From: an uncultured bacterium
GTDB taxonomy: Bacteria; Bipolaricaulota; Bipolaricaulia; UBA7950; UBA9294
DNA length: 64,000 bases
NCBI GenBank assembly: GCA_903857865.1
Contig: CAIOGO010000020.1
Location: forward strand, 43,064-107,063
Direction of reading: 5' to 3'
The notes under the pieces were generated by a model. That model saw only the letters and a list, made by a program, of their open reading frames with translations. It had not been told where the DNA came from and searched no databases. The position numbers were made by a program, and so were the translations under genes. Shown in pieces: positions 311 through 62,708 of this stretch (the stretch's first letter is position 1; the number at the start of each line of letters is the position of its first letter).

Positions 311-1350
311 ATGCGCACCGGCGTGGCGGACCTTCCCCTGCACAACGGCCGCGCTCCGCGTTGGCTGTTCGCTCGGATGGCGAAGCTCGCCGGCGAGATG
401 GTCGAGCTGCTCGTCGTCGAGCAAGGGCCGAGCGGGTTGCTCGAGAAGCTGAGCGACCCCTACTGGTTCCAGGCGTTCGGCTGCGTCCTCGGCTTCGACT
501 GGCACTCCAGTGGACTGACCACAACCACGTGCGGCGCGATCAAGGAAGGCGCACGCCGGACGAGATCGTTTCCTGGTGCGAGAAGACAGGCGGCGACCCG
601 GTTCCCCTTGTCGCGGCGAGCCGAACGTCGGCCAAGGTCGACAGCGCCGCCGTGCAGGACGGCTATCAAATCTACCACCACGCCTTCTTCTTCGATCGCG
701 ACGGGGAGTGGGCCGTTGTCCAGCAAGGGATGAACGAAACGAACGGCATGGCTCGTCGCTACCACTGGGTCTCAAGCCGGCTCGACGACTTCGTCTGCGA
801 GCCGCACGCCGCCATCTGCTGCGACCGTCGCGCACCGACGCTGAACCTCGTGGCCCGCGACAGTGCATCCGCACGCACGACGGCGGCCGAACTCGCGAGA
901 GAGACCCCCGTCCGGCTTGTGTCCGAACTCATCCGGCTCAAGCACCTCGCGCTGCCGCGACGGCATGCCATTCTCATGGCCGACATCGCCCCCGACTGCC
1001 TCGGTGCCATCCTGACGAAGACGTATGAAGCGCAGGCGGCCGACTTCCGAGAGCTGCTGATGCTGCCGGGAGTCGGCGCGAAGACCCTGCGGGCGCTCTC
1101 ACTCGTCGCAGAACTCGTCTACGGCGCGGCGCCCAGCTTCGACGATCCGGCGCGGTTCGCATTCGCGCACGGTGGAAAGGACGGGATCCCGTATCCCGTC
1201 GACCGACCTCTCTACGACCAGACGATCGACCTCATGCAGCGCGCCGTCCGGCGCGCCAAGCTGGAGCCGAAGGAGGAGCTGCAGGCGCTCCGGCGCCTCG
1301 ACCGCTTCTTCCTTCCGGCCCCAACGGGAAGGCAGGAGCCGCCTCCGTGA
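311..1350 (+). pseudogene. DUF763-family protein interrupted by a frameshift near 545-560
   Basis: N-terminal part in frame of ORF 311..733 (HNGRAPRWLF...WFQAFGCVLGFDWHSSGLTTTTCGAIKEG); continuation in frame of ORF 361..1350 (TPDEIVSW...QDGYQIYHHAFFFDRDGEWAVVQQGMNE); the two frames must be joined to give a full-length family member. Confidence 0.55.
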
Positions 1351-1455: not shown

Positions 1456-2838
1456 CTACTTGTGCACCCGGCGCAGGAACTCCTCGATCTCGGGCATGCC
1501 GCCCTGGAAGATGAGGTACCCGTCGTGCGGTTCGCGCTCGGTGATCTCGCCGGCGATCGGTGTCAACATCAGTTCGCGCACGCGTTCGAGGTCGCTCGTT
1601 TGGCCGAGGGCCCACGCAAGCTTGATGTAGGCGACCTCGGGGAGCATGTTCTCGGTGGGGATGATGCCCTTCGCCATCAGGTCGCGCCCGGTGTCGTAGA
1701 CGAACATGTGGACGTAGCCCCACAGGGTTTGCACGGTCATGTAGATGGCCACGCCAGCGGCCACGGCGCGCTCGATGGCGGGATAGACGGGTTTGTTGAT
1801 GTGCCCGAGCCCTGTCCCGGCGATGACGATGCCCTTGTACCCGTGCTCGACGAGCGAGTCGATGATGTCGGGATGCATGTTGGGGTAGTAGTAGGTCAGC
1901 GTCACCCGCTCTTCGAAGAAGGGCAGGATGTCGACGTGCCGGTCGGCGCGGCGGTGCGCGTAGTCCTGGCGCAGCGGCTTGACCCCGTCGCGCGTGACGG
2001 TGGCGAGCGGGATGTCGCCGACGGTGCGGAAGGTCGAGCGGTAGGACGAGTGCATCTTGCGGACGCGTGTCGCGCGGTGCAGCAGGCCGTACTCGTCTGA
2101 GGTCGGGCCGAACATGCACACCATGACCTCGGCGATGTCCGACGTCGCGGCCGTGGTCGTGGCGTGGATGAGATTCCGCGCCGCGTCCGACGACGGGCGG
2201 TCGGCCGACCGCTGCGAGCCGACCATGACGATCGGCACCGGCGAGTGCTGCACCATGAACGCAAGCGCGCTCGCGGTGTGGTGCATCGTGTCCGTCCCGT
2301 GGCCGATGACGATGCCGTCGATTCCGTTCTCGATCTCGCGGCCGATCGCCTTGGCGAGCTCGATGTACTGCGACGGCCCCATGTTCTCGGAGAAGACAGC
2401 GAACAGCTTCTCGGTCGAGAGGTTGCAGATGTCGGCCAGCTCCGGGACGGCGCCGTACAGCTCGCCGGGCGAGAACGCGGGGATCACCGCGCCGGTTCGA
2501 TAGTCGAGACGCGACGCGATCGTCCCTCCCGTGCCGAGGAGCTTGACGTTGGGCTTGTCTGGCGATGTCGGGAACTCCTTCTCTGGGATCTTGTAGTGCG
2601 CTTCGCGGCGGCCCAGTTCCTGGATCGCGCGGATCGTGCGCACGTCGATGCCGACGTTGTAGCCCGTGGCGAGCTTGAGGACGAGGTGGCGCGAGTCGTC
2701 GAATTCGGAGCGCGGGAGCACGATCCCGCGGAAGTGGCCGCGCGTCGACTCGACATCGACGTCGCTCCAGACCCCCACCTGGAATCGCGTTAGGACGTCG
2801 AGAGCCTCGCCCTTGTAGCCCTTGTGGGCGTCGCTCAT
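1456..2838 (-). CDS. gatD: Glu-tRNA(Gln) amidotransferase subunit D (asparaginase-domain, archaeal type)
   Basis: Asparaginase signatures LLGTGGTIAS and GIVIGHGTDTM; ATG at 2838 overlaps upstream gatE stop as ATGA; ORF track extends 7 codons further to GTG at 2859. Confidence 0.8.
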   Translation of the reverse strand: MSDAHKGYKGEALDVLTRFQVGVWSDVDVESTRGHFRGIVLPRSEFDDSRHLVLKLATGYNVGIDVRTIRAIQELGRREAHYKIPEKEFPTSPDKPNVKLLGTGGTIASRLDYRTGAVIPAFSPGELYGAVPELADICNLSTEKLFAVFSENMGPSQYIELAKAIGREIENGIDGIVIGHGTDTMHHTASALAFMVQHSPVPIVMVGSQRSADRPSSDAARNLIHATTTAATSDIAEVMVCMFGPTSDEYGLLHRATRVRKMHSSYRSTFRTVGDIPLATVTRDGVKPLRQDYAHRRADRHVDILPFFEERVTLTYYYPNMHPDIIDSLVEHGYKGIVIAGTGLGHINKPVYPAIERAVAAGVAIYMTVQTLWGYVHMFVYDTGRDLMAKGIIPTENMLPEVAYIKLAWALGQTSDLERVRELMLTPIAGEITEREPHDGYLIFQGGMPEIEEFLRRVHK

Positions 2839-4775
2839 CGTGTCGCCTCCTCGACCCACGCCGCGGTGTCGCGGAGCGGGACGTTGCCCATCGCGAGCGG
2901 GCGGATGCAGCCCATCAACGCGCGAACGCGCGCTTCCGGTTCAGGATGGCGAGCGACGAACGCCTTGGCGCAACGAGCGATCTGCGCGCGGATCTCCTTC
3001 GGCGTCGCCTTTCGGTAGCCGACGCGGCCGAGAAGGTCGTCGAACGTCGCGGCCGGCTCGAGAAGCGCAAGCGGCACGAGGAGTCGCAGGATCTCACGAG
3101 TAAGGTCGCGCTCTGCCGCCTCGACGATGACCCAGCGCACGCGCTCGACGTCGATCTCGCGGGCGCCCATGGCGTGCCGGACGTTGTGGCCGAGGAGCGT
3201 TGCCGCGAACGCGGAATCGACCTTGCGCTCGACGAGCCAGGCGAGGGTCGGCGATAGGTCGCGGCGGAGGATGTAGGCGTGCACGTCCTCGGGAGCGCTC
3301 CAGGCGCGGAGCGCCGCCATCCGGCGATCGACGGACTCCGGCAGGCGGGCGCGCGTTCGCTCGATCGCCTCTTCCTCGATCGGGATCGGCGCGGAGTCGG
3401 TGTCGGGGTACATGCGGTCCGGACCCGGCAGCACCCGCTCGAAGATCGTCGTCCCGTTGGGAAGCCCCTTGCGTGTCTCGTTGGGTACGCCTTGGAACGC
3501 GAGGCGGCACCGCTCGACGAGCGTGTCGACGGCGGTCGGGAGGTCAGCCGCCGGGCCCCAAACGAGGACGACTCCGTCATTCGACTTCGCGCCAACACGG
3601 ATCGCCAGCGTCCGCCACGCGGCGGGCGAGATGGCCGAGGCGGGTTGGTCGGGGTGGGCGAGATTCGGCACCGCGATGCAGGCCACAACCTTCAGTCGAT
3701 CGGAGAACTCGTCGGCGAACGTGCGCCCCGGGTTGGTGAAGAACGACAGGAGGCCGCCGAAGCGCGGCAGCCGAAAGATCACCGCGGACGCTGTTGACGG
3801 GACGATGCCGTCGACGAGATGGCGATCCGCATCGCCGAGGGGGACGTGCGTCGCCGTCCACGCGGTGGGGGCGCTCACGCGTCGCCGGAGCTCATCGCGG
3901 ATGAGCAGAAGAGCCTTCTGACGGAACGCCTCATTGTGCGTCAGCTCGGGGATCCAGCGGATGTGTTGCACACCCTTGATCTCGACTCGGGTCCCGCCCT
4001 CGACGCTGACGTTGACGTCCTCGCGCGCGGCGCCGATGCCCACGTTGACGTGCCGCGTGCTGCGCGCAAGGTAGCGAATGTAGTTCGCCGCTTCGGCCGC
4101 CTCGTCCGGGGTCAGAAGCTCGGGCTCCGTCACCGTCTCGATGAGCGGCATGCCGAGGCGATCGGTCGTGTAGGTTCGCTCGTGCCCCACGTCGCTCACC
4201 TCGCGGCACGAGTCCTCTTCGACGCTCAGCTGACGCACGCCGACGCGCTTGCCGGCGACGGGCAGATGGCCGTCGATGCCGATGATCGCCGTGCGCTGGA
4301 ATCCGGTGGGGATGCTGCCATCCAGGTACTGCTTCCGCGCGATGTGGAGCTCGCCGACGATGCTCGTGTTGAGGAGCAGGGCGACCTCGATCGCAATGTC
4401 GATGGCCTGTCGGTTGACGGCGAACGGCGGGGTATCGTCGATGTCGTACGTGCACGCCGTCTCGCCCTTGATGCGGTAGATGATATTCTTCTTGGTCTTG
4501 TACTCCATGAGCGCCGTGCCGTCGTACTCGCCCAGTTCGCTCAGCGTTGGGCGCATGTGGCGGACAAGTTGGGCGTCGTAGTCGTCGCCGTCCTGGTAGT
4601 GCCCGGCCGGGCAGCGGCAGAAGAGCTTCTTCGTCGTGCGGAGTTGCTGGTGCACCTCGAGCCCGCAGCGGAACCCGAGCGTGCGGTAGGTTTCCTGCGT
4701 CGCCTCGGCGCGGCGGACGTAGCCGAGGAGATTGTGGCTGTCCGGATTCTCGGAGATCGCGTCGTCCTTCTTCAT
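2835..4775 (-). CDS. gatE: Glu-tRNA(Gln) amidotransferase subunit E (GatB/E catalytic domain plus AspRS-like insertion domain)
   Basis: GLEVHQQL motif near N-terminus, long insertion domain, translationally coupled to gatD; start set at MKKDD (aa 36 of track ORF 2835..4880). Confidence 0.8.
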   Translation of the reverse strand: MKKDDAISENPDSHNLLGYVRRAEATQETYRTLGFRCGLEVHQQLRTTKKLFCRCPAGHYQDGDDYDAQLVRHMRPTLSELGEYDGTALMEYKTKKNIIYRIKGETACTYDIDDTPPFAVNRQAIDIAIEVALLLNTSIVGELHIARKQYLDGSIPTGFQRTAIIGIDGHLPVAGKRVGVRQLSVEEDSCREVSDVGHERTYTTDRLGMPLIETVTEPELLTPDEAAEAANYIRYLARSTRHVNVGIGAAREDVNVSVEGGTRVEIKGVQHIRWIPELTHNEAFRQKALLLIRDELRRRVSAPTAWTATHVPLGDADRHLVDGIVPSTASAVIFRLPRFGGLLSFFTNPGRTFADEFSDRLKVVACIAVPNLAHPDQPASAISPAAWRTLAIRVGAKSNDGVVLVWGPAADLPTAVDTLVERCRLAFQGVPNETRKGLPNGTTIFERVLPGPDRMYPDTDSAPIPIEEEAIERTRARLPESVDRRMAALRAWSAPEDVHAYILRRDLSPTLAWLVERKVDSAFAATLLGHNVRHAMGAREIDVERVRWVIVEAAERDLTREILRLLVPLALLEPAATFDDLLGRVGYRKATPKEIRAQIARCAKAFVARHPEPEARVRALMGCIRPLAMGNVPLRDTAAWVEEATR

Positions 4776-21185: not shown

Positions 21186-22421
21186 TCAGTTCTTCACAAA
21201 GGCCAGAACTGCGTTCTGTCCGCCGAATCCGAACGAGTTGGAGAGCGCGACGCGGATCGGAAGCGCGGTCGGGACCGGCGTGTAGTCGAGATCGCAGTTG
21301 GGATCGGGGGTCTCGTAGTTCCTCGTGGCGGGGATGAATCCGTTCTCCATGGAGAGGAGCGTCGCGATCGCCTCGACGCCCCCCGCCGCCCCGAGCAGGT
21401 GCCCGATTTGGGACTTGGTCGAGCTGATCTTCGTCCGCGCCGCGGCCGCCCCAAACGCCCGCTTGATGGCCACGGTCTCAATCCGATCGTTCGGCTCGGT
21501 CGACGTCCCGTGCGCGTTGATGTAGTCAACGTCCGACGGGGAGACGTCGGCCTGCCGGAGCGCAAGCTCGATCGCGCGGCGCGCACCGTCGCCGTCCTCG
21601 GCGGGCGACGTGATGTGGAACGCGTCGGAGGTCATGCCGAACCCGGCAAGCTCGGCGTAGATCCTGGCGCCTCGGGCGACGGCCCGATCGTAGTCCTCCA
21701 GCACGACGAACCCCGCGCCTTCGCCCATCACGAACCCGTCGCGGTCCAGATCAAACGGACGGGACGCGCGCTCCGGCTCGTCGTTGCGCTTGGAGACCGC
21801 ACCGATGCGCGCGAAGCCGGCGAACGTGATCCGCAGCAGAACCGCCTCGGCTCCGCCCGCCAGCGCAGCATCCGCGATCCCGGACGATACGAGGTGCGCA
21901 GCCAATCCGATGGCGTGAGCGCCGCTCGCACAGGCAGAGACGATGCCGAAGCTTGCGCCCCGAAAGCCGTGCCGAATCGAGATCTCGCCCGCGAGGGCGT
22001 TCGGCATGAGGCTCGTCACGAAGAAGGGGCTGACGCGCCGCGGCCCACGGTCGAGCATCTCGCGGAAGTTGATCTCGAAGGTTTCCATCCCCCCGATCCC
22101 CGTTCCAGAGATCACGGCGATCCGGTCGGGATCGTAGTCGGCGGCAGCGAAGCGCGCGTCCTCGAGCGCCAAGGACGAGGCGGCGAGCGCGAACTGCGTG
22201 GAGCGGTCGATGCGGCGCGCGTGCTTCGCGTCGACGTAGACCAAGGGATCGAAGTCGCGCACCGGGGCTCCGATCTTCACATCGATGCCGTCGAGGTCAA
22301 CCAAGTCGTCGACACGACAGACGCCACTGCGGCCCGAGCGCAGGCCGTCCCAGAACGCGCTCTTCCCAATCCCGATCGGCGTGACCGGCCCGAGCCCGGT
22401 GACCGCCACGCGTCTAGTCAT
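21186..22421 (-). CDS. fabF: 3-oxoacyl-[ACP] synthase II
   Basis: KAS fold with active-site SACASGAHAIG, HGTST, GHLLGAAG, SFGFGGQNA. Confidence 0.9.
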   Translation of the reverse strand: MTRRVAVTGLGPVTPIGIGKSAFWDGLRSGRSGVCRVDDLVDLDGIDVKIGAPVRDFDPLVYVDAKHARRIDRSTQFALAASSLALEDARFAAADYDPDRIAVISGTGIGGMETFEINFREMLDRGPRRVSPFFVTSLMPNALAGEISIRHGFRGASFGIVSACASGAHAIGLAAHLVSSGIADAALAGGAEAVLLRITFAGFARIGAVSKRNDEPERASRPFDLDRDGFVMGEGAGFVVLEDYDRAVARGARIYAELAGFGMTSDAFHITSPAEDGDGARRAIELALRQADVSPSDVDYINAHGTSTEPNDRIETVAIKRAFGAAAARTKISSTKSQIGHLLGAAGGVEAIATLLSMENGFIPATRNYETPDPNCDLDYTPVPTALPIRVALSNSFGFGGQNAVLAFVKN

Positions 22422-36110: not shown

Positions 36111-36181
36111 TGGGAGATCGTTCAATGGCAGGACAGCAGGCTCTGGCCCTGTTAATGGGGGTTCGAATCCTCCTCTCCCAA
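36111..36181 (+). tRNA. tRNA-Gln (anticodon CUG)
   Basis: Manual fold: 7-bp acceptor TGGGAGA/TCTCCCA, D-arm GTTC-AATGGCA-GGAC, anticodon arm GCAGG-CTCTGGC-CCTGT with CTG centred after U33, T-arm GGGGG-TTCGAAT-CCTCC; no encoded CCA. Confidence 0.85.
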
Positions 36182-36226
36182 AAGGGAACCCTGAGGAGAT
36201 CCTCCTTCTCAGGGTTCCCTTTTGGG
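36182..36226 (+). terminator. Intrinsic-terminator-like hairpin directly after tRNA-Gln
   Basis: Perfect 15-bp inverted repeat AAAGGGAACCCTGAG / CTCAGGGTTCCCTTT with 12-nt loop followed by TTTTGGG. Confidence 0.5.
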
Positions 36227-36434
36227 TGCGGCGGTGAGAAGTCCCACCCCGAGGAAGGAGTTCGCGTCGGCGAACTCCCCAGTGACTGGAGAACCGAAGA
36301 GCCACTCCAGTCGCCATCCTCCTCTCCCGGTTCTGGGCGGTGAGAACCCCCAAGAGAAAGAAGGAGTTTGCGGCCACAGACTCCCGAGCAACTGGAGAGC
36401 CGAAGAACCGCTCCCGTTGCCATCCTCCTCTCCC
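36224..36434 (+). repeat. Two tandem ~105-nt units, each ending in a copy of the tRNA-Gln 3' end (ATCCTCCTCTCCC)
   Basis: ATCCTCCTCTCCC at 36167-36179 (in tRNA), 36316-36328 and 36422-36434; units also share GCGGTGAGAA, GAAGGAGTT.GCG and ACTGGAGA.CCGAAGA.CC blocks. Confidence 0.6.
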
Positions 36435-36660
36435 AACAGGTACGTGCAACGTCTGTTCCTGTCCGCGTTGACGTGCTCGCTGTTCTGATTGGCATATCTC
36501 AGACCTTCGGAGTCACTTCGCGGATTCGATCTCCTGTCCTTTCCTGCAGAAGAGTGCTGCTCGTGGATTCTGCGCCCAGCCCACTCCATCATTGGCAGGA
36601 GGACTGACTCACTGGATCGCCGGGCAAGCGCGCACACCGGGAATGCGAGGAGGGGACCCC

Positions 36661-37119
36661 ATGAAGTGCTTGACAATCAACCCCGAAGCCATCGACATCG
36701 ATGCCCTGGTAGAACGTGGAACATCACTCCACGGCCATTGCGGCCCATTCCTCGTGCTCGGCATCCGTATGGGTCTGCAGGCGCTCACTTTGCTTCATCA
36801 TCCAGGCTACTTCGGCCTCCGTGCCGAATCCGAGGCCGGTTCAACGCCACCACTCTCATGCCTCAATGACGGCATACAGGTCGGCTCTGGGTGCACGATG
36901 GGCAAAGGGAATCTCAGCATCGTCGGCAACAGCCGACCCCGCGTTCGCTTTGTTGCTGACGACGGCGCAAGTATCAGTATCGAGATCCGAGCCGATGTTC
37001 TTCGCGCTGTGCAACGTGGGGAGATTGACGAGCTCGGGACGCTATTGCGTCGCCGTCCCGCTGATGAGTTGTTCGCGTGGACAAGTCCGACCTCACCCAG
37101 TACAGCGTCATCATCGTGA
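36661..37119 (+). CDS. FmdE/FwdE-family protein
   Basis: HGHCGPFLVLGIRMG matches the FwdE-family HGHxCP...G.RM core; RBS GAGGAGGGG before ATG at 36661. Confidence 0.65.
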   Translation: MKCLTINPEAIDIDALVERGTSLHGHCGPFLVLGIRMGLQALTLLHHPGYFGLRAESEAGSTPPLSCLNDGIQVGSGCTMGKGNLSIVGNSRPRVRFVADDGASISIEIRADVLRAVQRGEIDELGTLLRRRPADELFAWTSPTSPSTASSS

Positions 37120-37381
37120 CTCGCATCCTGGAACCCGAGCGGGAGCCAGAGTCCTAAGATCGTCCTCCACTCCCAACTGGCAGCTACACGTTCGTACTCT
37201 TGCGTAGGTGCATGCATTTTCCCGGTCCGTGAGGCGCCACCTCGAATGCTCCGCTCGCCAATTGTGTTGCGGAAGTCAGTTTGTTCCTGGTCTAGCAGTG
37301 ACTGTTACACCCCGGTCATGAGGCGGGGTCCACTTCGAGGATTATGAACGTATGTGTATAATGCTCTCCTGCGGGGCGATC

Positions 37382-37843
37382 ATGGCGAGACCACAGTGTT
37401 GTCGAAGAATCGCAGCGATGCCTATTGCAGAAGCGTTTGGGCCGGTTCCCGCTTCGGCTTGCGCGCCTGATCAAGTCGTCATCACCCTCGACGAGTTCGA
37501 GGCGGTGCGCCTCGCCGATCTCGAGGAGCTCTACCAGGAACGCGCCGCCGAGAGGATGGGCGTTTCACGGCCCACGTTCAGCCGGATCATCGAGTCTGCA
37601 CACCGGAGGATTGCCGAGGCCCTGGTCAGTGGCAAGAGTCTGAGGATTGAGGGCGGTTCCGTTCGTGTACACCCGACGGGGCCATCTCGCTGCCGGCAGT
37701 GTGGACGGGAGTCGGCCGGTACGTATGAGTGCCCGCATTGCCGTGGAGACTGCAGCGTGAAGACCACGCATAAGACAGGGTCTGCTGCCTCGCAAACGAA
37801 CAAACGCAGACGCAGCCGGACCGAATCTGACCGCATTACGTAG
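37382..37843 (+). CDS. DUF134 (UPF0251) predicted DNA-binding protein with C-terminal Cys cluster
   Basis: ITLDEFEAVRLADLEELYQERAAERMGVSRPTFSRIIESAHRRIAEALVSG typical of DUF134; C-terminal CRQCG...CPHC; start among three Met candidates. Confidence 0.65.
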   Translation: MARPQCCRRIAAMPIAEAFGPVPASACAPDQVVITLDEFEAVRLADLEELYQERAAERMGVSRPTFSRIIESAHRRIAEALVSGKSLRIEGGSVRVHPTGPSRCRQCGRESAGTYECPHCRGDCSVKTTHKTGSAASQTNKRRRSRTESDRIT

Positions 37844-37881
37844 GCTGGGTACCTGGAGCACCCGGCAAAGGAGACGAGAAG

Positions 37882-38268
37882 ATGAACCTCTGCATTCCAG
37901 TGACCGAGGGCAAACGGCTTCAAAGCCCAGTGAGTGGGCACTTCGGGTCGGCGCCGTTCTTCGCGATCGTCGACCGAGACACAGGAGCCTGTCGCATTGT
38001 CCCGAATAGAGACGCCCAGCACAGCCATGGCGCATGCCAGCCACTCGCGAGTCTCGCCGGCGAAGGGGTAGACGCTGTCGTTGTTGGCGGCATAGGTGCG
38101 GGCGCGCTGAGCAAGCTGCAAGCAGCAGGCGTCAGCGTCTTCCTGTCAGAGGAGCCGACGGTCGAGGCCGTCCTAGCGGCTCTCAAGGCCGGAACACTGC
38201 AGCTGGCAACGCCCGCCACTTCCTGTGCGCACCGCCAGCACGGGCACTGTCCTGAGGAAGCCGCGTGA
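37882..38268 (+). CDS. NifB/NifX-like (dinitrogenase FeMo-cofactor-binding fold) family protein
   Basis: Small protein with GHFGSAPFFAIVD...VDAVVVGGIGAGA pattern typical of the family; RBS AAAGGAGA before ATG. Confidence 0.65.
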   Translation: MNLCIPVTEGKRLQSPVSGHFGSAPFFAIVDRDTGACRIVPNRDAQHSHGACQPLASLAGEGVDAVVVGGIGAGALSKLQAAGVSVFLSEEPTVEAVLAALKAGTLQLATPATSCAHRQHGHCPEEAA

Positions 38269-38321
38269 TGGAGTCGGGAGGAACGCCCGAGGGTAGATTC
38301 ATCGGGTGGTAGCCTTCGCCT

Positions 38322-38786
38322 GTGCAGCCACCCTGGAGGACAGCGTTGGACACGATCATCCTGTATGCGATAGCTGTCGCCTTGCTAGCGGTTTCTGCGG
38401 CCAGGGATCGCGAGAAAGCGAAACGAGCCATCCTGAAGGGCGCGAAGGCCTTCGAGAGCATACTGCCGCAGCTTGTGACGGTTCTGCTTGCCGTTGCTGC
38501 CGTCCTCGCGGTCTTCAACCCGGAGATAGTCTCGCGGGTGATCGGCGAACGATCGGGGTTCTTCGGCATCCTTGCTGCTTCCGTCGTCGGGGGGATTGCC
38601 CTCATCCCCGGGTTCGGTGCCTTCCCCGCTGCGGCGGAACTCCTGAGGAGCGGCGCGGGGACGATGCAGATCGCGGCTTTCGTGTCGTCCTTGATGATGG
38701 TTGGCGTTGTGACCCTGCCCATGGAGATCAGGTACTTCGGTCGGCGTGCGGCTATCGCGCGGAACTTGCTCGCTTGCGATTCATGA
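38322..38786 (+). CDS. Small integral membrane protein (permease-like), unknown function
   Basis: Three to four predicted TM stretches; start uncertain. Confidence 0.5.
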   Translation: MQPPWRTALDTIILYAIAVALLAVSAARDREKAKRAILKGAKAFESILPQLVTVLLAVAAVLAVFNPEIVSRVIGERSGFFGILAASVVGGIALIPGFGAFPAAAELLRSGAGTMQIAAFVSSLMMVGVVTLPMEIRYFGRRAAIARNLLACDS

Positions 38787-38937
38787 ATCAGCATCCTCGA
38801 CCCCTCCGCAGCGAATACCCCGCTAGGGTAATCCTCTGCCAGACTTCGGGTCCTTGAGGTTGGTCGGACATCTGATCTAGTCGCACCCGATACACTGAGG
38901 CGGTCGGATTCTGCTATCCTCCCCTCAAGGAGGGAGC

Positions 38938-39555
38938 GTGAAGAGGGCGGCGCTGCTCGCGGTCGAGTTGATTCTTTGTTCGATTCCGCTTCTTGCTGGC
39001 CTTCCCAGCCTTCCTGTTCATGCTGACTCGTCAGACGTAGTCAATCCACTTGTCGCAGGTTCTGCCTATCGGGGTGCACCTGAGGTCCGATACGCTGCGA
39101 TCACGGCTGAGAAGGCGCAGGACCTCGCCACGATTGTCGGCAACATCGCTCCAGTTTCTCAGGAGACAAGAGTGCGCAGGAATATCGCCCATGCATCATT
39201 CTGCCTTCCTCAGAATGTGCTTGGGACTCTCTACTACGGGTTGCTCCAGCTCACTGGGAATGTTGTGGGCACTGCAGATATGAACGAGATGAAGATCATC
39301 GTGACCAGAACCCCCTTCGGCGTTTCATTGGGGAGGTACATCTTCGTCAGCACGTCCCTGCAGACTGAGAACACTGTAAGGCATGAGTATGGCCATACTA
39401 TGCAGGGCTACAAGCATGGCCCCTTCTACCTCCCGTTTGAGGGTTTGGTATCCCTTGTTCAGGCGGCCATCTCGCTGATCTCGCCCTCTTTCGCGAATCG
39501 CTACTTCGACAGGTGGCCTGAGAACGAGGCGAATGAACTCAGCGGGGTCAAATGA
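38938..39555 (+). CDS. Secreted hypothetical protein (signal peptide, possible HxxxH metal site)
   Basis: N-terminal signal-like LAVELILCSIPLLAGLPSLPVHA; visibly lower G+C than core genes; RBS AAGGAGGGAG before GTG. Confidence 0.5.
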   Translation: MKRAALLAVELILCSIPLLAGLPSLPVHADSSDVVNPLVAGSAYRGAPEVRYAAITAEKAQDLATIVGNIAPVSQETRVRRNIAHASFCLPQNVLGTLYYGLLQLTGNVVGTADMNEMKIIVTRTPFGVSLGRYIFVSTSLQTENTVRHEYGHTMQGYKHGPFYLPFEGLVSLVQAAISLISPSFANRYFDRWPENEANELSGVK

Positions 39556-39848
39556 GAGGCTGGCCTGTCCTCCAACCTCCGGTTCAACTCCAGCCTAGTA
39601 CCTCCCGTGGTAACTTCAGGCTCCACGCTGTCACCCGGTAGTCAGGATGAAGATTCCGGTTACGCCCATGCAGGCTCCTCGGCAGCGGCGCTTCTTCTCC
39701 CCAGGGGCGTTTCATGGTCCGCGGCCAGTCCCTCAAGCTCTTCGGCTTCTCTGCAGACGGTGCAGCGCTTCTCCGATGGCCTCGACTGCCACCGTAGCCT
39801 CCCTCCTCCGGAACGCAAGCCAAGGTGAGAATACCCTCGCTCTGCGGC

Positions 39849-40958
39849 TCAGCCTTCGGGGGATAGGTCCGTTCTAGGGTCGGTCTTCGCGAGGGCGGCC
39901 TCGAGTTCGCCGAGGAGCTCGGCGATGAGGTCCTTGACCGAGACGATCTTGTCGATCCGGTGGGCGTTCTGCCCACAGAAGACGAGGCCGTGGTCCACGT
40001 CTCCCCGACAGGCGTTCAGAAGGGCCTGGGCGATGCAGAACTTGGCCTCCGCGACCTTGCAGGCGGTCAGGCAATGGTACGGGCAATGGACCTGCGGAGG
40101 GTCCGCCTTCTCGAGGTCTACTAGAAACTTGTTCCGGATGGCGCGCCCAGGGAGACCGACGGGGCTCTTGATGATGACAATGTCCTCTTCCCTGGCGTCG
40201 AGATAGGTCTGCTTAAAGGCTTTGGCGGCATCACACTCCCAGGTGCAGACGAATCTCGTGGCCATCTGGACTCCGGATGCGCCAAGCCGCAGCATGCGGG
40301 CGATGTCGTGCCCGTCGTAGATGCCCCCAGCGGCGATGACCGGGATCGCCTTACCGTGGCGCTCTTCGTAAGGCTTCACGGTCTCTAGCACCTGGGGCAC
40401 GAGGGTCTCGAGTGCGAAGTCCTCCACATGCTGGAGTTCATCGCGGGAGAATCCGAGGTGTCCTCCTGCGAGGGGGCCCTCGAGGATGAAAGCGTCGGCG
40501 GTCCTCTCGTAGCGCTTCGCCCAAGCGCGAAGGATCAGGTCTGCGGCGCGAGCTGAGCTGACGATGGGAACGAGGTTCACCGAGGGGTCCGGGACCATCT
40601 CGGGCAGCCGCATCGGAAGACCTGCGCCAAAGACAATCATCTTGATGCCTTCTTCGACGGCCGTCTCCACAAGAACCTCGACGTTCCTGACTGCGCCCAT
40701 GAAGTTGACCGCGAGGATCCCCTGGGTCATGGATCGTGCCTTGCGGATCTCCGCCCGCAAGGCCTCGCAGGAGACGCGCTCGTAGTCCCGCGCGCCCCGC
40801 TCGAGATCGCCGAGCCCGATGCTGGAGATCGTGCCGATGCCGCCTTCCTCAGCCACTGCCGCAGCGAGGGACGCCATCGAGATCCTGACCCCCATCCCCC
40901 CTTGGACGATGGGGATATCGGCAATGAGGTCTCCGATACGAAGCTTTGGGATGCTCAT
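39849..40958 (-). CDS. Enoyl-[ACP] reductase FabK-like / nitronate monooxygenase family flavoprotein
   Basis: IVQGGMG N-terminal motif, AAGGI.DG FMN-binding region; RBS AAGGAAGAGAGG before ATG at 40958; ATGA overlap with upstream KAS gene. Confidence 0.8.
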   Translation of the reverse strand: MSIPKLRIGDLIADIPIVQGGMGVRISMASLAAAVAEEGGIGTISSIGLGDLERGARDYERVSCEALRAEIRKARSMTQGILAVNFMGAVRNVEVLVETAVEEGIKMIVFGAGLPMRLPEMVPDPSVNLVPIVSSARAADLILRAWAKRYERTADAFILEGPLAGGHLGFSRDELQHVEDFALETLVPQVLETVKPYEERHGKAIPVIAAGGIYDGHDIARMLRLGASGVQMATRFVCTWECDAAKAFKQTYLDAREEDIVIIKSPVGLPGRAIRNKFLVDLEKADPPQVHCPYHCLTACKVAEAKFCIAQALLNACRGDVDHGLVFCGQNAHRIDKIVSVKDLIAELLGELEAALAKTDPRTDLSPEG

Positions 40959-42262
40959 AGGCACCTCTCTTCCTTGAATCGCCTGACGACGAGGCAGGCG
41001 TTCCCGCCGCCGAAGCCGAACGACTGGGTCATCGCGACGTCGGGCTCGGTGAGCTCGGCTCCTTGGGTCACGTAGTCCAGGGGGCAATCCGGATCCGCTC
41101 GCTCATAGTTGATCGTCGAAGGGATCCAGCCGGTGGAGATACTCAGCACGGTGGCCGCGAACTCGACCGCCCCGGCCGCGGCGAGCAGGTGGCCGATCAT
41201 CGACTTGATCGAGCTGATCTTGAGTTTCGTGGCGTGGACTCCGAAGAGCCTCATCACCGCCGCGCTTTCGATCTTGTCGTTCAACACGGTGGACGTACCG
41301 TGGGCATTGATGTAGTCGACGTCCGTGGGGGCAACGCCGGCGTCGCGCAGCGCTCCCTGCATCGCGCGGAGCATGCCGTCGCCGTCGGGCTCCGGCGCGG
41401 TGATGTGGAACGCATCGGCCGTGTTGCCGTAACCCGTCAACTCAGCGTAGATCGGCGCCTGACGTCCGAGCGCGTGGTCGAGCCTCTCCAACACGACCAC
41501 ACCGGCTCCCTCGCCCATGACGAACCCATCGCGGTCCTTGTCGAACGGGCGGCTGGCGTGTTCGACATCGTCATTTCTGGTGGACATTGACCGTGTCCCG
41601 CAAAAACTGCCAAAAGGCAGCGGGCTCACACTGGCCTCCGCCCCTCCGGCCAGCATGATGTCGGCGTCGCCCCTTTCGAGGATGCGGTACGCATCGCCGA
41701 TGGCGTTCGCCCCGGTGGAGCAAGCAACGGACGGCGCGGACAGAGGGCCCTTCAGGCCATGGGTGATGGACACCATGCACGCAGCGGTGTTGATGAGGAC
41801 TTTGGTGACGACGAAGGGGCCCAGAGCGCGCGGGCCCTTCGCCAAGAGCTGGGCGTGTTCGGTCTCGATGGTCTGCGTGCCGCCGATGCCCGAGCCGATG
41901 ATCACACCTGCCCGGCACCTGTCGTAGTCCGCCCCCTGCAGGCGGGCATCCCGCATGGCCAGGTCCGCGGCCACAAGGGCGAACTGCGTGAACCGGTCCA
42001 CGCGTCGGGCAACCTTCTCGTCAAGCCAGTCTTCGGCACGGAAGTCCTTCACCTCTCCAGCCATCTGCGATCGATAGGCGGCCGGATCGAACAGGGTCAC
42101 GCGTGAAATGCCGTTTTGTCCGGCGAGCAGCTTCTCCCAGAAGGCCTCACGCCCTATGCCGATGGGGGTTGCGACGCCGATGCCGGTCACGACCACCCGA
42201 TGTCGCTGCAGGACGCGAGCCTCCCCACGGCCGCTCACCGATCCCAACCCCCCGACCCGCAA
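40955..42262 (-). CDS. 3-oxoacyl-[ACP] synthase II paralog
   Basis: KAS motifs VACSTGANAIG, HGTST, GHLLAAAG, SFGFGGGNA; true start probably an internal GTG a few codons in. Confidence 0.85.
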   Translation of the reverse strand: MRVGGLGSVSGRGEARVLQRHRVVVTGIGVATPIGIGREAFWEKLLAGQNGISRVTLFDPAAYRSQMAGEVKDFRAEDWLDEKVARRVDRFTQFALVAADLAMRDARLQGADYDRCRAGVIIGSGIGGTQTIETEHAQLLAKGPRALGPFVVTKVLINTAACMVSITHGLKGPLSAPSVACSTGANAIGDAYRILERGDADIMLAGGAEASVSPLPFGSFCGTRSMSTRNDDVEHASRPFDKDRDGFVMGEGAGVVVLERLDHALGRQAPIYAELTGYGNTADAFHITAPEPDGDGMLRAMQGALRDAGVAPTDVDYINAHGTSTVLNDKIESAAVMRLFGVHATKLKISSIKSMIGHLLAAAGAVEFAATVLSISTGWIPSTINYERADPDCPLDYVTQGAELTEPDVAMTQSFGFGGGNACLVVRRFKEERCL

Positions 42263-58585: not shown

Positions 58586-59201
58586 CGATGATTAGTGTGC
58601 AGGTTCGCTACATAGCGCACCGACGTCCGCCAGCCTACAAGGGCCTTCCCGCCCTTCTTCTCCTCCTGTTGTGGCGCTGCGCAGTGAAACGCAGAGCCTG
58701 GCGCGAGCCTACAGCCATGCGTTCGTTGGCAGCAAGCGCGTGGCTGCGGAAGGGGAAGCCTCTGAACTCCCCCAGATGAACTGGCCCGCGGGGCCAAAGG
58801 ACTCACCGCGGATGCATCGCTCCCAGACACGCCCAACCGACCGGAACAGGGCTTCGCACGGTGGCCAAACGGGATGCGTGATCGCAAGACCTGCCCCCGG
58901 CGCCCCATGACCCTGCGCCCCGCTACTCAAAGCATCGCGCGAACTTGGATGCGACAGTCTGCTCGCCCTGACCGACTCCGAGAAAGGCGAGGAACGCGCA
59001 TCGTGGTTTGGGATGGATGGGACCGTCCGCTTCACGCCCCTGTGACGTTGGCTGCTTGAGACTTCTGCGACGCCCGAGGAGATCAACATGAAGGCGCCCT
59101 CGCGGAGGAAGCGCTAGCCAACGGAGCCACCCCATCATGACCACCGCGATCCGCTAGAAGCTCGTGCTGGATTGCAAGACCGAACCCCGACGCCGGCGAA
59201 T

Positions 59202-59361
59202 GTCGCACACAAGGTGCGACGCTACATCGAACCTTGCGGCGACGCGCGATCCGTGGTCCGAGATCCCTGTAGCGTCGGAGCTTGCCTCCGACGGTCGCCC
59301 CTGCGGTCTTCGGGGGAGGGCCAGCGGCCCGTCGCACACAGGGTGCGACGCTACAACGTTT
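59202..59361. repeat. Two direct copies of a ~31-nt element containing a GTCGCAC/GTGCGAC hairpin, plus an inverted partial copy between them
   Basis: GTCGCACACAAGGTGCGACGCTACATCGAAC at 59202-59232 and GTCGCACACAGGGTGCGACGCTACAACGTTT at 59331-59361; inverted TGTAGCGTCGG near 59269. Confidence 0.6.
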
Positions 59362-59416
59362 CACAACCACCGCGCGTGACGTCGACGTGGTCCCGCCAAC
59401 GGACCGCGAACTCGGC

Positions 59417-59722
59417 TCACGCACTCAGGTATCGCTTGAGGTCGCGGTAGAAGTTCTCGTGCCCGCCGAGTGCAAGAAGGGTGACCGTCTTCGCTGGCGC
59501 ATCGGGCCAATACGCGAGAAGGTAGATCTGATCCGCAAGCCTGAACTTGTGAACGAACACGCCACGCAGGTCGCCCACCTTCTCCTCGCCAAGCGAGGGA
59601 TCCTGGCAGATGGCGCGGACCTGCTGGTCCACTTCGGCTCGTAGGACGGACGGAAGTCTCTTCTTGATGCGATCGAAATGGTGGACGGAGACGGGGGTAT
59701 AGGGCACGAGCGCTAGCCCCAC
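59417..59722 (-). CDS. Type II toxin, RelE/ParE superfamily
   Basis: ~100 aa basic protein overlapping an upstream RHH gene; start codon uncertain. Confidence 0.7.
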   Translation of the reverse strand: MGLALVPYTPVSVHHFDRIKKRLPSVLRAEVDQQVRAICQDPSLGEEKVGDLRGVFVHKFRLADQIYLLAYWPDAPAKTVTLLALGGHENFYRDLKRYLSA

Positions 59723-59952
59723 TCGTACGGCACGACGTCGCCATCCTTCATCTGTTCGAGAGCCTCGAGGATGTCTGCTCGGAATTGCGGATGAAGTTCG
59801 CTGTATTGGCGGACGTAGTTCTCAATCGCGAGTTGGATGACGTTGCTCGTCGTGCGGCGCTCCGCCTTCGCGATCTCTTCAATCTGCTCGCGTAGCTCCT
59901 GCGACACCTTGGCGGATACTGTCGATGTGGGCATAACGGCCCACTCTAGCAT
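59713..59952 (-). CDS. Ribbon-helix-helix (CopG/Arc family) antitoxin
   Basis: TVSAKVSQELREQIEEIAKAERRTTSNVIQLAIENYV is a typical RHH fold; directly upstream of the toxin. Confidence 0.7.
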   Translation of the reverse strand: MLEWAVMPTSTVSAKVSQELREQIEEIAKAERRTTSNVIQLAIENYVRQYSELHPQFRADILEALEQMKDGDVVPYEWG

Positions 59953-60023
59953 GGATCGTCTACTTCGTCCACTTTGTCATCCGATGTGCTGCAGTGCAAA
60001 ACCGAGCCCCGGCATCGCCGCTC

Positions 60024-60209
60024 TTAGGGGTGGGGCACGGCTAGCGACCGACAGATCTTCTTGGCCAGGATGTCGGGGATCTCGTTGTCGCGGGGAACGG
60101 CCTCCACGTAGCCGGTCCGCGGGTTCTCCCACAGCGAATGGGATGCCCCCTCGCGCTTGAAGATACAGCCGTGGCGTCGCAAATGCTGAAGCAGAGCCTG
60201 ACGCTTCAT
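60024..60209 (-). CDS. hicA: HicA-family toxin
   Basis: 61 aa, LLQHLRRHGC...REGASHSLWENP typical of HicA; 4-nt overlap with upstream HicB-like gene. Confidence 0.8.
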   Translation of the reverse strand: MKRQALLQHLRRHGCIFKREGASHSLWENPRTGYVEAVPRDNEIPDILAKKICRSLAVPHP

Positions 60210-60421
60210 CCGATCTTTACGACATCTCGAACGGCGTCCTTCGGCACTCCCCGCAGGCCCTCCTCGCGACGATCCTCAAGGATCAACTCAATCGCGGAGG
60301 CGAGACTCTGCAGACATTCCTCCCTGCTTCGGCCCTGGCCGTTGGCGCCAGGGATCTCCGGGCAGTAGCCAATGTACCACTCGCCATCCTGTTCAATGAC
60401 CGCAGTGAACTCGTTCCGCAT
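60206..60421 (-). CDS. hicB: HicB-family antitoxin
   Basis: 71 aa, FTAVIEQDGEWYIGYCPEIPGANGQGRSREEC pattern of HicB. Confidence 0.75.
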   Translation of the reverse strand: MRNEFTAVIEQDGEWYIGYCPEIPGANGQGRSREECLQSLASAIELILEDRREEGLRGVPKDAVRDVVKIG

Positions 60422-60722
60422 CGCTACCCCTCCGCCATGGCAGCGTATGGCAAGGCGATCCCGCAGTCAATCATCGGCCGCGATGCACCGCGCACAGGGA
60501 ACGGCAAGAGGCAGGGCGCGGCCCCGCTGCCCGAGGCGAGTACTTGCGCGTTCACCGCGGAGCACGCAGAGAAGCGGGTGATATTGCAGTGCAAGACCAG
60601 ACCCCGTCGCCTCACTCCCGCCACGAACGGAAGAGGAGTTCCGCAGGAACTCCCCAGCTGCCCGGCCACGCAGAGCAGCCCTTGACCAGGCGATACAGCA
60701 TCTGATCCTATCGAGCTCTTCT

Positions 60723-61094
60723 CTACGGCTTGCGGCGCTCCAGATTGACGAGAACGCGGCCGTTCTCTTGCTTGACTGCGTAGGTCTCAAGATCGTGCGT
60801 CCGGACGCCGGCCATCAGCGCGCCCGCCTTGAGGACCCTCGGGATTGGGATCCTCGGATCGCTCACCCGCTTCCCCGTCGCGAGCTCGAACCTCGCCTTG
60901 TGCAGCGGGCAGACGACACAGCCATTCTCGATCTTCCCCTCGTGGAGCGGCCCGTTCATGTGGGGGCAGCGATCGCCGAAGGCGTAGATGCCTTGCCCAA
61001 CCTTGGCGAGGGCGATCTCGCGGTCGCCCACGTCAACCTTCATCATTCCCCCGTCGGGGATCTCCCCCACCGCGGCGATGTCCTTCCATTCCAT
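60723..61094 (-). CDS. Rieske [2Fe-2S] domain protein (ferredoxin-like)
   Basis: CPHMNGPL ... CPLHKARF = Rieske CxH...CxxH ligand pairs; start taken at MEWKDI. Confidence 0.7.
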   Translation of the reverse strand: MEWKDIAAVGEIPDGGMMKVDVGDREIALAKVGQGIYAFGDRCPHMNGPLHEGKIENGCVVCPLHKARFELATGKRVSDPRIPIPRVLKAGALMAGVRTHDLETYAVKQENGRVLVNLERRKP

Positions 61095-61271
61095 GGTGAG
61101 CCTCCTTCTTTGCCGCGCACACTCTGTCACTTCAGGAGGATTGAGCCAATTCGGTCGCCCACCGCACTCTCAGAAGAGCATCAATGCGAGATTGCGGGCC
61201 TGACTCAGCGCCCTAGTCTGCCAGCTTCCGACCCCGCCGGTCGACCCCGTCGCCCTCGAAAGTCAGCCGCG

Positions 61272-61691: not shown

Positions 61692-61757
61692 TACCCTCCG
61701 AGGAACCTGTGACCACTTGTGCTCGAGTGTCCCCGATAGATGGGGACTTGAAGCGCC

Positions 61758-62243: not shown

Positions 62244-62392
62244 GCGCTTCCCTCCGTCTACGGGGCTTCTGTTCAGAGAGTGATTCTACTCCCGGCGTAG
62301 TCCTTCCCTGCTCACGTGCGCTCGACAATCCCTTCCGCGGGATGTCGGTGCGTTGTTGCACCCGGGACCTCGTCCCCGCACATGATGCAGGC

Positions 62393-62698: not shown

Positions 62699-62708
62699 GG
62701 AAACCTCC

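What the first reader, a model, noticed from the sequence alone, without database searches (positions are those of the whole stretch)
1456..4775. Archaeal-type GatDE amidotransferase in a bacterial gene context
An asparaginase-domain protein (GatD-like) is translationally coupled (ATGA) to a GatB/E-like protein with a long insertion domain (GatE-like). GatDE is by established knowledge the archaeal route to Gln-tRNA(Gln), yet this window also has clearly bacterial genes (clpP, era, multi-domain rpsA, bacterial-type pheS, hup) and a tRNA-Gln(CUG). This suggests horizontal acquisition or an unusual lineage.
Basis: partly seen in the sequence, partly recalled or inferred. Interest (0 to 1): 0.6.

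Follow-up and report, generated by a model that had tools for sequence, protein, structure and literature searches.

The report
GatDE tRNA amidotransferase in a bacterium
A bacterium of the candidate phylum Bipolaricaulota carries the two-gene GatDE enzyme, which reviews call archaea-only, and the same operon turns up in many other bacterial phyla, so the archaea-only rule looks outdated.

Summary
gatE (4775..2835, minus strand, 646 aa) and gatD (2838..1456, minus strand, 460 aa) overlap by ATGA. Both pass NCBI's GatE and GatD equivalog models, and their closest solved structures are archaeal GatDE. The host is a bacterium of Candidatus Bipolaricaulota. The operon is not contamination or a recent import. 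Its composition is typical of the window, the same arrangement occurs in independent assemblies, and GatE homologues are found across the phylum, often on the same contig as ribosomal protein S1. The main extension is breadth: full-length gatE-gatD pairs occur in at least 80 other bacterial species genomes, including two cultured isolates. They form a bacterial clade about 30% identical to archaeal GatE and cleanly separated from it. No paper found in the library searched describes this. The window's tRNA-Gln has the bacterial U1-A72 first pair, not the archaeal A1-U72 that GatDE is reported to read, and the GatE loop beside that pair differs between the clades. The most likely function is amidation of Glu-tRNA(Gln) to Gln-tRNA(Gln). 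Whether GatCAB or GlnRS coexist with it could not be tested. Origin is unresolved; the nearest archaeal relatives are Asgard sequences.

The parts
2835..4775 (-). gatE: the tRNA-dependent kinase/amidotransferase subunit (646 aa). It has a cradle (GatB_N) domain, an AspRS-like insertion domain, a helical domain and a divergent YqeY-like tail.
   Evidence: TIGR00134 394.2 bits (cut-off 319.55); NF003107 449.2 bits (cut-off 456). Best PDB matches are 2d6f_C (4.9e-94) and 1zq1_C. The Mg-site residues H15/E157/E184 (M. thermautotrophicus numbering, PMC2330236) align with H, E, E. The model's best Foldseek hits are GatE chains.
1456..2838 (-). gatD: the glutaminase subunit (460 aa), made of a GatD_N domain and a type I asparaginase fold.
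   Evidence: TIGR02153 509.9 bits (cut-off 324). Best PDB matches are 1zq1_A (5.4e-122) and 2d6f_A. The motifs GTGGTIAS, HGTDT, RVRKMHSS and QRS.DRPSSDA are invariant or nearly invariant in 64 aligned GatD sequences.
2835..2838 (-). ATGA overlap of the gatE stop and the gatD start (translational coupling).
   Evidence: Read directly from the sequence. The same 4-nt overlap is seen in the called genes of L001 and L002.
2846..2850 (-). GGAGG Shine-Dalgarno-like sequence for gatD, 7 nt upstream of its ATG and inside the end of gatE.
   Evidence: Read directly from the sequence. That it acts as a ribosome-binding site is inferred.
36111..36181 (+). tRNA-Gln(CUG), the presumed substrate class. It has U1-A72, A73, a 7-nt D-loop and a 4-nt variable loop.
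   Evidence: ARAGORN and Rfam RF00005, 57.1 bits. Acceptor arms UGGGAGA/UCUCCCA read from the sequence. It lies 31 kb from the operon, so the link is functional inference only.

Best explanation
The two genes encode a heterodimeric (probably alpha2-beta2) tRNA-dependent amidotransferase, GatDE, that is native to a Bipolaricaulota bacterium. A non-discriminating GluRS would first load Glu onto tRNA-Gln. GatE then phosphorylates the gamma-carboxyl of Glu-tRNA(Gln) using ATP and Mg. GatD hydrolyses Gln or Asn, and the ammonia passes to GatE, which forms Gln-tRNA(Gln).

Shown here: family membership of both subunits, conserved catalytic residues, the coupled operon, the bacterial host, conservation across the phylum, and membership of a large bacterial GatDE clade that spans many phyla.

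Inferred: the substrate and the reaction, and that this clade has adapted to the bacterial U1-A72 first base pair of tRNA-Gln through changes in the GatE loop next to that pair.
For: - Family membership: both subunits score above the TIGRFAM GatD and GatE equivalog cut-offs and far below the GatB cut-offs. The best solved structures by sequence and by fold are archaeal GatDE.
- Catalytic residues: the GatE Mg-site residues and the GatD Thr/Lys/Asp motifs are conserved.
- Operon: ATGA coupling with a GGAGG upstream of the gatD start.
- Native to the genome: G+C is 0.662 (gatD) and 0.680 (gatE), against 0.662 +/- 0.019 for 31 other genes. Codon-usage distance falls inside the window's range, and gatD has the highest GC3, 0.93.
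- Independent assemblies: the identical operon sits between GNAT/ABC/CysRS genes on one side and DUF763/ClpP/trigger factor on the other in three assemblies.
- Phylum-wide: all 120 listed GatE homologues are 59-95% identical, and every one that carries an organism name is Bipolaricaulota. The window's S1 protein is also Bipolaricaulota, and at least 15 contig lengths are shared between the S1 and GatE hit lists.
- Breadth: 82 contig stretches (80 distinct loci by the scan's own count) from bacterial species genomes carry full-length GatE at 48-62% identity. They include Bacteroidales, Ignavibacteria, Zixibacteria, Aminicenantes, Cloacimonadota, Calditrichota, Omnitrophota, Clostridia/Eubacteriales and Desulfobacteraceae, and the cultured strains Perlabentimonas gracilis and Clostridiales oral taxon 876 F0540. 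gatD lies immediately downstream in 73 of them; in the other 9 none was found, most often because the contig ends within 0.7 kb of gatE.
- Separate clade: the bacteria|archaea split has 60/60 bootstrap support.
Against: - No biochemical data exist for any bacterial GatDE.
- No GluRS gene is in the window, and whether the genome also has GatCAB, GlnRS or AsnRS could not be examined.
- The only tRNA-Gln seen has U1-A72, whereas archaeal GatDE is reported to recognise A1-U72 (PMC2330236, PMC9499178). A direct transfer of the archaeal recognition mode is therefore not guaranteed.
- Pfam does not detect the YqeY-like tail (PF02637) or the GAD insertion in the window protein itself.
- NF003107 scores 449.2, just under its cut-off of 456.
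- The structure model is poor in the cradle domain (mean pLDDT 67.8).
Confidence: 0.8

Rival explanations
1. The operon is a recent horizontal import from an archaeon into this genome, or an archaeal fragment mis-assembled into a bacterial contig.
For: The family's characterised members are all archaeal (PMC2811023, PMC2330236). DUF763, a family shared with archaea, lies next to gatD.
Against: - Composition and codon usage are typical of the window.
- The same junctions on both sides occur in three independent assemblies.
- The closest archaeal GatE found is only about 37% identical (P0167). In contrast, 120 listed homologues are 59-95% identical, and all of those that carry an organism name are Bipolaricaulota.
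- GatE and ribosomal protein S1 share contigs in many relatives.
Confidence: 0.03
2. The bacterial GatDE clade does not do the same job as archaeal GatDE. It might act on both Glu-tRNA(Gln) and Asp-tRNA(Asn) in place of GatCAB. It might be a redundant or condition-specific second amidotransferase alongside GatCAB or GlnRS. Or it might amidate some other acyl substrate.
For: - The clade is only about 30% identical to archaeal GatE.
- The positively charged loop beside the 1-72 pair is changed: archaeal VKRGLGTIRQD, bacterial VRTGIGAGRED, window VNVGIGAARED. The tail motif also differs.
- The tRNA-Gln has U1-A72, the same first pair that bacterial GatCAB reads on both tRNA-Gln and tRNA-Asn (PMC2330236).
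- Many host groups, such as Bacteroidales, are from general knowledge expected to have GlnRS and GatCAB. This was not checked here.
Against: - All catalytic motifs of both subunits are kept.
- The AspRS-like insertion that is modelled to clash with AspRS is retained (PMC2330236).
- No conserved neighbour gene suggests a different pathway.
Confidence: 0.15
3. On origin: bacterial GatDE is a vertical relic from the last common ancestor (Sheppard and Soll proposed that LUCA had both enzymes, cited in PMC9499178), not the result of an archaea-to-bacteria transfer.
For: - The bacterial clade is monophyletic and deep, with about 35 clusters at 50% identity and within-clade identity down to 31%.
- On 190 core columns rooted with GatB fragments, it is sister to 85 of 88 archaeal representatives.
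Against: - With three full-length GatB outgroups and 445 columns, archaea are monophyletic in only 1 of 70 bootstrap trees. Bacteria nest beside Asgard sequences: Heimdallarchaeota P0167 and Hodarchaeales P0253.
- The distribution across bacterial phyla is patchy, and phyla interleave in the tree (Eubacteriales with Aminicenantes, an Ignavibacteriaceae sequence inside Bacteroidales). This fits transfer between bacteria.
- These are distance trees with a simple correction, so long-branch artefacts are possible.
Confidence: 0.15

Closest known systems
Archaeal GatDE (Methanothermobacter thermautotrophicus 2D6F, Pyrococcus abyssi 1ZQ1)
   Same: - Two subunits with the same domain content: GatD_N plus an asparaginase fold, and a GatB/E cradle plus AspRS-like insertion, helical domain and tail.
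- The same catalytic residues.
- Best sequence and fold matches.
- Both pass the GatD and GatE equivalog models.
   Different: - The host is a bacterium.
- GatE is about 30-37% and GatD about 48-49% identical to archaeal proteins.
- The loop beside the tRNA 1-72 pair has lost the archaeal K-R pair.
- The cognate tRNA-Gln has U1-A72 instead of A1-U72.
- The tail is too divergent for Pfam PF02637.
Bacterial GatCAB (GatB subunit, e.g. S. aureus 3IP4, Aquifex 3H0L)
   Same: The cradle domain is homologous (E 6e-21 to 3h0l_B). The reaction chemistry is the same. GatCAB reads U1-A72 and the D-loop size of bacterial tRNA-Gln (PMC2811023).
   Different: - GatB has no AspRS-like insertion.
- GatB pairs with the amidase GatA and with GatC, not with an asparaginase-type subunit.
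- The window protein scores far below the GatB cut-offs (at most 128.5 bits against cut-offs of 314.8 and above).
- GatB reads the first pair with a 3-10 turn that GatE lacks (PMC2811023).
GatDE of Asgard archaea (Heimdallarchaeota P0167, Hodarchaeales P0253)
   Same: - P0167 is the highest-scoring archaeal representative (367 bits).
- This group is the sister of the bacterial clade in the GatB-rooted tree.
- The Hodarchaeales contig has gatE-gatD in the same order with the same ATGA overlap.
   Different: - Identity is still only about 37% (GatE) and 45% (GatD).
- Support is moderate: members of this group were in the sister clade in 16-21 of the 32 informative bootstrap trees (P0177 in 10).
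- The Hodarchaeales contig carries no archaeal marker genes in the 12 kb seen.

Membership tests
GatE (Glu-tRNA(Gln) amidotransferase subunit E) | Scores above the curated cut-off of the equivalog models. | tested here: met
   TIGR00134 scores 394.2 against 319.55. NF003107 scores 449.2 against 456, just under.
GatE (Glu-tRNA(Gln) amidotransferase subunit E) | Cradle domain with the Mg-binding His/Glu/Glu (H15, E157, E184 in M. thermautotrophicus). | tested here: met
   The alignment to 2d6f_C shows H in GLEVHQQ, E in SVEED and E in PLIET at those positions. Residue roles are from PMC2330236.
GatE (Glu-tRNA(Gln) amidotransferase subunit E) | AspRS-like insertion domain, which GatB lacks. | tested here: met
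   The GatB_N match is split over residues 37-472. The alignment to 2d6f_C and 1zq1_C is continuous through the insertion. The modelled region from about residue 280 to 430 is largely confident (pLDDT about 67-95). AspRS fold hits are weak (E 0.06). PF02938 is on record for the 73%-identical homologues P0009 and P0012.
GatE (Glu-tRNA(Gln) amidotransferase subunit E) | C-terminal YqeY-like tail domain. | tested here: inconclusive
   PF02637 is not detected in the window protein. However, NF003107 aligns to residue 606, the MG...G motif aligns with the archaeal tail, and residues 470-646 are modelled as confident helices.
GatE (Glu-tRNA(Gln) amidotransferase subunit E) | Works with a GatD partner. 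| tested here: met
   gatD overlaps gatE by 4 nt in the window. It is immediately downstream in 73 of 82 related bacterial contig stretches. That the two proteins form a complex is inferred.
GatDE as described in the literature | Found exclusively in archaea ('archaeal signature protein'). | tested here: not met
   The host is Bipolaricaulota, with bacterial neighbours such as trigger factor, ClpP, Era, S1 and HU. At least 80 other bacterial genomes carry the operon.
GatDE as described in the literature | The substrate tRNA-Gln has A1-U72, which the enzyme recognises. | tested here: not met
   The only tRNA-Gln in the window has U1-A72. What the enzyme itself recognises is not testable with these tools.
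GatDE as described in the literature | Converts Glu-tRNA(Gln) to Gln-tRNA(Gln) in an organism that lacks GlnRS. | not testable with these tools
   Only 64 kb plus about 20 kb of flanks of this genome could be seen. No glnS, gltX or gatCAB is there.
GatD (Glu-tRNA(Gln) amidotransferase subunit D) | Equivalog score above cut-off, the GatD_N domain, and the asparaginase Thr nucleophile with its Thr-Lys-Asp triad. | tested here: met
   TIGR02153 scores 509.9 against 324 and NF003217 scores 508.5 against 310. PF18195 is found. The motifs are conserved.
GatB (subunit of GatCAB) | Scores above the GatB equivalog cut-offs and has no insertion domain. | tested here: not met
   The best GatB model scores 128.5 against 338, and an insertion is present.

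The most novel reading that the evidence does not exclude
GatDE is not an archaeal signature enzyme. A large bacterial branch, present in Bipolaricaulota, the FCB-group phyla, Cloacimonadota, Aminicenantes, Clostridia and others, has been retuned to the bacterial U1-A72 tRNA-Gln. It serves as a second, so far unstudied bacterial route to Gln-tRNA(Gln). In Bipolaricaulota it may be the only one, having displaced GatCAB for glutamine. The branch would stem from an ancient exchange with Asgard-like archaea.
Probability: 0.4. Interest if true: 0.75.

Novelty: new variant of a known kind. Interest (0 to 1): 0.62.

Why it matters
Reviews up to 2022 (PMC9499178; also PMC2811023, PMC2330236, PMC3467082) state that GatDE occurs only in archaea. 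They build co-evolution arguments on that premise: that GatDE and the A1-U72 tRNA-Gln locked each other in, that this explains why archaea never acquired GlnRS, and that it bears on what LUCA had.

A broad bacterial GatDE clade working beside U1-A72 tRNA-Gln gives a natural experiment on those ideas. It shows which enzyme residues change when the first base pair flips. It also lets one ask whether bacteria, like archaea, split the Gln and Asn jobs between two amidotransferases. Sheppard et al. (PMC2330236) left that question open.

It also matters for annotation-based metabolic reconstructions, and for using GatDE as an archaeal marker when screening MAGs for contamination.

Tried and rejected
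1. Contamination or a chimeric contig. Rejected on composition, repeated assembly and co-contig evidence.
2. A conserved gene neighbourhood or a nearby tRNA that might hint at another function. Clustering ORFs from 80 loci gave no family beyond gatE and gatD in more than 8 loci. No tRNA-Gln or tRNA-Glu lies near any of the 46 loci scanned.
3. A search for gatB or gatA in the window and in 1.4 Mb of GatDE-bearing flanks, using the GatE cradle and then real Enterococcus GatA and GatB. It found only cross-hits to gatE. This is uninformative because so little of each genome is held.
4. Plasmid carriage as a transfer vehicle. No bacterial-type GatDE was found in 72,556 plasmid records; only one haloarchaeal replicon and ordinary gatB genes matched.
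5. Promoter and terminator scans around the operon found nothing.
6. Literature searches for any report of bacterial GatDE found none. The library lacks most subscription journals, so absence there is not proof.
7. Rooting with 190 columns of GatB fragments was unresolved. Rooting with full-length GatB gave the Asgard-sister result, but by neighbour joining only.
8. The structure model from a shallow alignment (61 sequences, at least 58% identity) was poor in the cradle domain. I used it only for the domain inventory.
9. The Hodarchaeales GatD is nearly equidistant from bacterial GatD (44-46%) and from the archaeal PDB GatDs (40-44%). It neither confirms nor refutes the Asgard link.
10. The antisense ORF 2057-2503 (+), with GC3 of 0.95, is a shadow of the gatD reading frame and not a gene.
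Full report
**1. What is in the sequence**

Two ORFs lie head to tail on the minus strand. gatE runs 4775..2835 (646 aa). gatD runs 2838..1456 (460 aa). The gatE stop and the gatD start share the four bases ATGA, and a GGAGG sits 7 nt upstream of the gatD ATG.

Pfam finds GatD_N, Asparaginase and Asparaginase_C in the small subunit. In the large subunit it finds a GatB/GatE catalytic domain whose match is stretched over residues 37-472, which means it contains a long insertion.

NCBI's curated models give these scores:
- GatD: TIGR02153 509.9 bits (cut-off 324) and NF003217 508.5 bits (cut-off 310).
- GatE: TIGR00134 394.2 bits (cut-off 319.55) and NF003107 449.2 bits (cut-off 456, just missed).
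- GatB: all models at most 128.5 bits against cut-offs of 314.8 and above.

The closest solved structures by sequence are the archaeal GatDE complexes 2D6F and 1ZQ1 (GatE 4.9e-94; GatD 5.4e-122). GatB and ordinary asparaginases are far behind.

**2. Is the enzyme intact?**

Mutagenesis of the M. thermautotrophicus enzyme showed that three Mg-binding residues of GatE are essential: H15, E157 and E184 (PMC2330236). They align with H, E and E in the window protein.

In GatD, the nucleophile motif GTGGTIAS, the HGTDT motif and the RVRKMHSS lysine motif are invariant or nearly so in 64 aligned GatD sequences.

An AlphaFold2 model built from 61 close homologues is weak in the cradle domain (mean pLDDT 67.8). 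It is largely confident for the insertion domain (about residues 280-430) and confident for the helical C-terminal region (470-646). Its best Foldseek matches in the PDB are the GatE chains (E about 1e-24), then GatB, then weak AspRS hits that fit an AspRS-like insertion.

Pfam does not see the YqeY-like tail in this protein. Even so, NF003107 aligns to residue 606, and the MG...G tail motif lines up with the archaeal one.

**3. Whose genome is this?**

The listed homologues of the window GatE are 59-95% identical. Every one that carries an organism name is Candidatus Bipolaricaulota, Bipolaricaulia or Bipolaricaulis. The window's ribosomal protein S1 gives the same answer independently.

At least 15 'longest contig' lengths recur in both hit lists (for example 885,827, 680,698 and 81,857 bp). 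So gatE and rpsA sit on the same contig in many relatives.

The exact GatE protein occurs on a 190,696-bp ENA contig and on two JGI contigs with the same neighbours. On one side are a GNAT acetyltransferase, two ABC exporters and CysRS. On the other are DUF763, ClpP, trigger factor, an M50 peptidase and an NFACT protein.

The rest of the window holds Era, S1, HU, guanylate kinase, YicC, two FabF-like synthases and a GGDEF/GAF/PAS protein.

G+C of gatD and gatE is 0.662 and 0.680, against 0.662 +/- 0.019 for 31 other genes. Their codon-usage distances lie inside the window's range, and gatD has the highest GC3, 0.93. Contamination and recent import are therefore rejected.

**4. The wider picture: the main result**

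The best 80 loci are all in bacterial records. They include Bacteroidales, Lentimicrobium, Tenuifilaceae, Rikenellaceae, Ignavibacteria, Zixibacteria/GN15, Aminicenantes, Cloacimonadota, Calditrichota, Omnitrophota, Clostridia/Eubacteriales and Desulfobacteraceae. Two are cultured strains: Perlabentimonas gracilis and Clostridiales oral taxon 876 F0540. GatE in these loci is full length and 48-62% identical to the window's.

gatD lies immediately downstream of gatE in 73 of the 82 contig stretches; in the other 9 no gatD was found, most often because the contig ends within 0.7 kb of gatE. It is 68-85% identical to the window's GatD. No other gene family and no tRNA gene is conserved nearby.

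An exhaustive search of 1.84 billion cluster representatives shows two tiers of scores. About 40 representatives score at least 400 bits (43-69% identity). All others score 388 bits or less, and the full-length sequences among them are 30-43% identical.

Of the 33 upper-tier sequences in the tree, five could be checked, and all five are bacterial:
- Two carry names: Deltaproteobacteria and candidate division CSSED10-310.
- Three sit in bacterial contexts: sigma-54 activators, an RND/OEP efflux system, HPr kinase, and a T9SS sorting domain.

All eight lower-tier clusters that carry an organism name are archaeal: Heimdallarchaeota, Hodarchaeales, Thor- and Odinarchaeota, Methanofastidiosa, Thermoprotei, Ignisphaera and one labelled only 'archaeon'. 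Two of them sit among archaeal marker genes.

In neighbour-joining trees over 626 columns, the split between bacteria and archaea has 60/60 bootstrap support. Median GatE identity is 56% within the close bacterial tier, 41% between the two bacterial tiers, and 30-32% between bacteria and archaea.

**5. tRNA recognition**

Archaeal GatDE is reported to read the A1-U72 pair and the small D-loop of archaeal tRNA-Gln. Bacterial GatCAB reads U1-A72 with a 3-10 turn that GatE lacks; GatE has a conserved, positively charged loop there instead (PMC2330236, PMC2811023, PMC9499178).

The window's tRNA-Gln(CUG) has acceptor arms UGGGAGA/UCUCCCA, so its first pair is U1-A72. It also has A73, a 7-nt D-loop and a 4-nt variable loop.

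In the alignment, the loop in question reads as follows:
- Archaea: RSTGKVKRGLGTIRQD
- Close bacterial tier: RSTGKVRTGIGAGRED
- Second bacterial tier: RSTGKVRRGIGAARQD
- This window: RSTRHVNVGIGAARED

The change fits a retuned reading of the first pair, but that is inference only.

**6. Origin**

With GatB fragments and 190 shared columns, the root is unresolved: bacteria are monophyletic in 79/100 trees and archaea in 13/100.

I then took three full-length GatB sequences from records in the plasmid collection and used 445 columns. Bacteria are monophyletic in 64/70 bootstrap trees and archaea in only 1/70. In the point tree the bacterial clade is sister to six archaeal representatives, which include Heimdallarchaeota P0167 and Hodarchaeales P0253. 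In the 32 bootstrap trees where the sister group was small, five of these six appear in it 16-21 times and the sixth, P0177, 10 times.

The Hodarchaeales contig also has gatE-gatD with an ATGA overlap. However, it shows no archaeal markers in the 12 kb held, and its GatD is almost equidistant from bacterial and archaeal GatD.

I read this as a hint of an old archaea-to-bacteria transfer followed by spread among bacteria, since phyla interleave in the tree. It is not a result, because these are simple distance trees.

**7. What remains unknown**

Only about 84 kb of this genome could be seen: the window plus about 10 kb of annotated flank on each side. It holds no gltX, glnS, asnS or gatCAB.

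I therefore cannot say whether GatDE is the sole route to Gln-tRNA(Gln) here, whether it shares the work with GatCAB as in many archaea, or whether it is redundant.

**8. Known or new?**

Database pipelines already label these bacterial proteins GatE and GatD (names). Eight full-text searches found no paper that reports or discusses GatDE in bacteria. Papers from 2008 to 2022 state that it is exclusive to archaea. The library omits most subscription journals, so prior mention elsewhere cannot be excluded.

I rate it a new variant of a known kind: the same enzyme family and almost certainly the same chemistry, in the 'wrong' domain, with a different tRNA first pair and a changed recognition loop.

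**9. Verdict**

This is a real GatDE in a real bacterium, but it is a phylum-wide and multi-phylum feature, not a local oddity.
- Interest is 0.62. The finding contradicts a standing textbook statement and opens direct tests of enzyme-tRNA co-evolution. The mechanism itself is conventional, and the key genome-inventory question is still open.

Noticed in passing
window 36200-40000: Directly downstream of tRNA-Gln(CUG), G+C drops to about 0.60 (window mean about 0.66) for about 4 kb. The stretch holds only small ORFs with no Pfam hit and one weak PHROG hit (sigma-factor-like, 37352-37843). It may be a small island inserted at the tRNA gene.
   Followed up: partly
window 361-1350 (+): A DUF763 protein lies convergent to gatD, and the pairing is kept in all three assemblies. 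The match starts at profile position 95 of 319, so the protein looks N-terminally short (273 aa as called elsewhere). DUF763 is not among the gene families found near gatED in more than 8 of the 80 loci from other bacteria.
   Followed up: partly
window 58600-64000 and about 10 kb beyond (L095): A defence-type island: a ParE-like toxin with an RHH antitoxin, a HigB-like toxin with an HTH_3 antitoxin, then, beyond the window, an MmeI-type restriction-modification enzyme, a nucleotidyltransferase and an HD-CE protein.
   Followed up: no
L003-L082 versus the window: Across bacterial phyla GatD is much more conserved than GatE (median pairwise identity 76% against 56%). The same two genes therefore evolve at very different rates.
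   Followed up: partly
L092 (Hodarchaeales MAG contig JBSWQN010000046.1) 8001-11254: An Asgard-labelled contig (G+C 0.36) has gatE-gatD in the bacterial order with the same ATGA overlap. Its neighbours (ABC/FtsX, RDD, PadR) are not archaeal markers, so the label could not be verified.
   Followed up: partly
L085 3576-5513: One second-tier bacterial GatE (P0133, on a contig carrying a T9SS sorting domain) has no gatD next to it and still has a Pfam-detectable GatB_Yqey tail, unlike the window protein.
   Followed up: no
window 2057-2503 (+): A 148-aa ORF antisense to gatD has GC3 of 0.95. It is a frame shadow of the very GC3-rich gatD and misled a GC3-based gene picker.
   Followed up: yes
window 21186-22421 (-) and 40955-42262 (-): There are two separate FabF-type beta-ketoacyl synthase genes in one 64-kb window. 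The second lies next to an NMO-family (FabK-like) enzyme at 39849-41087.
   Followed up: no
No ORF with a PheRS domain was found among the ORFs scanned against Pfam.
   Followed up: partly
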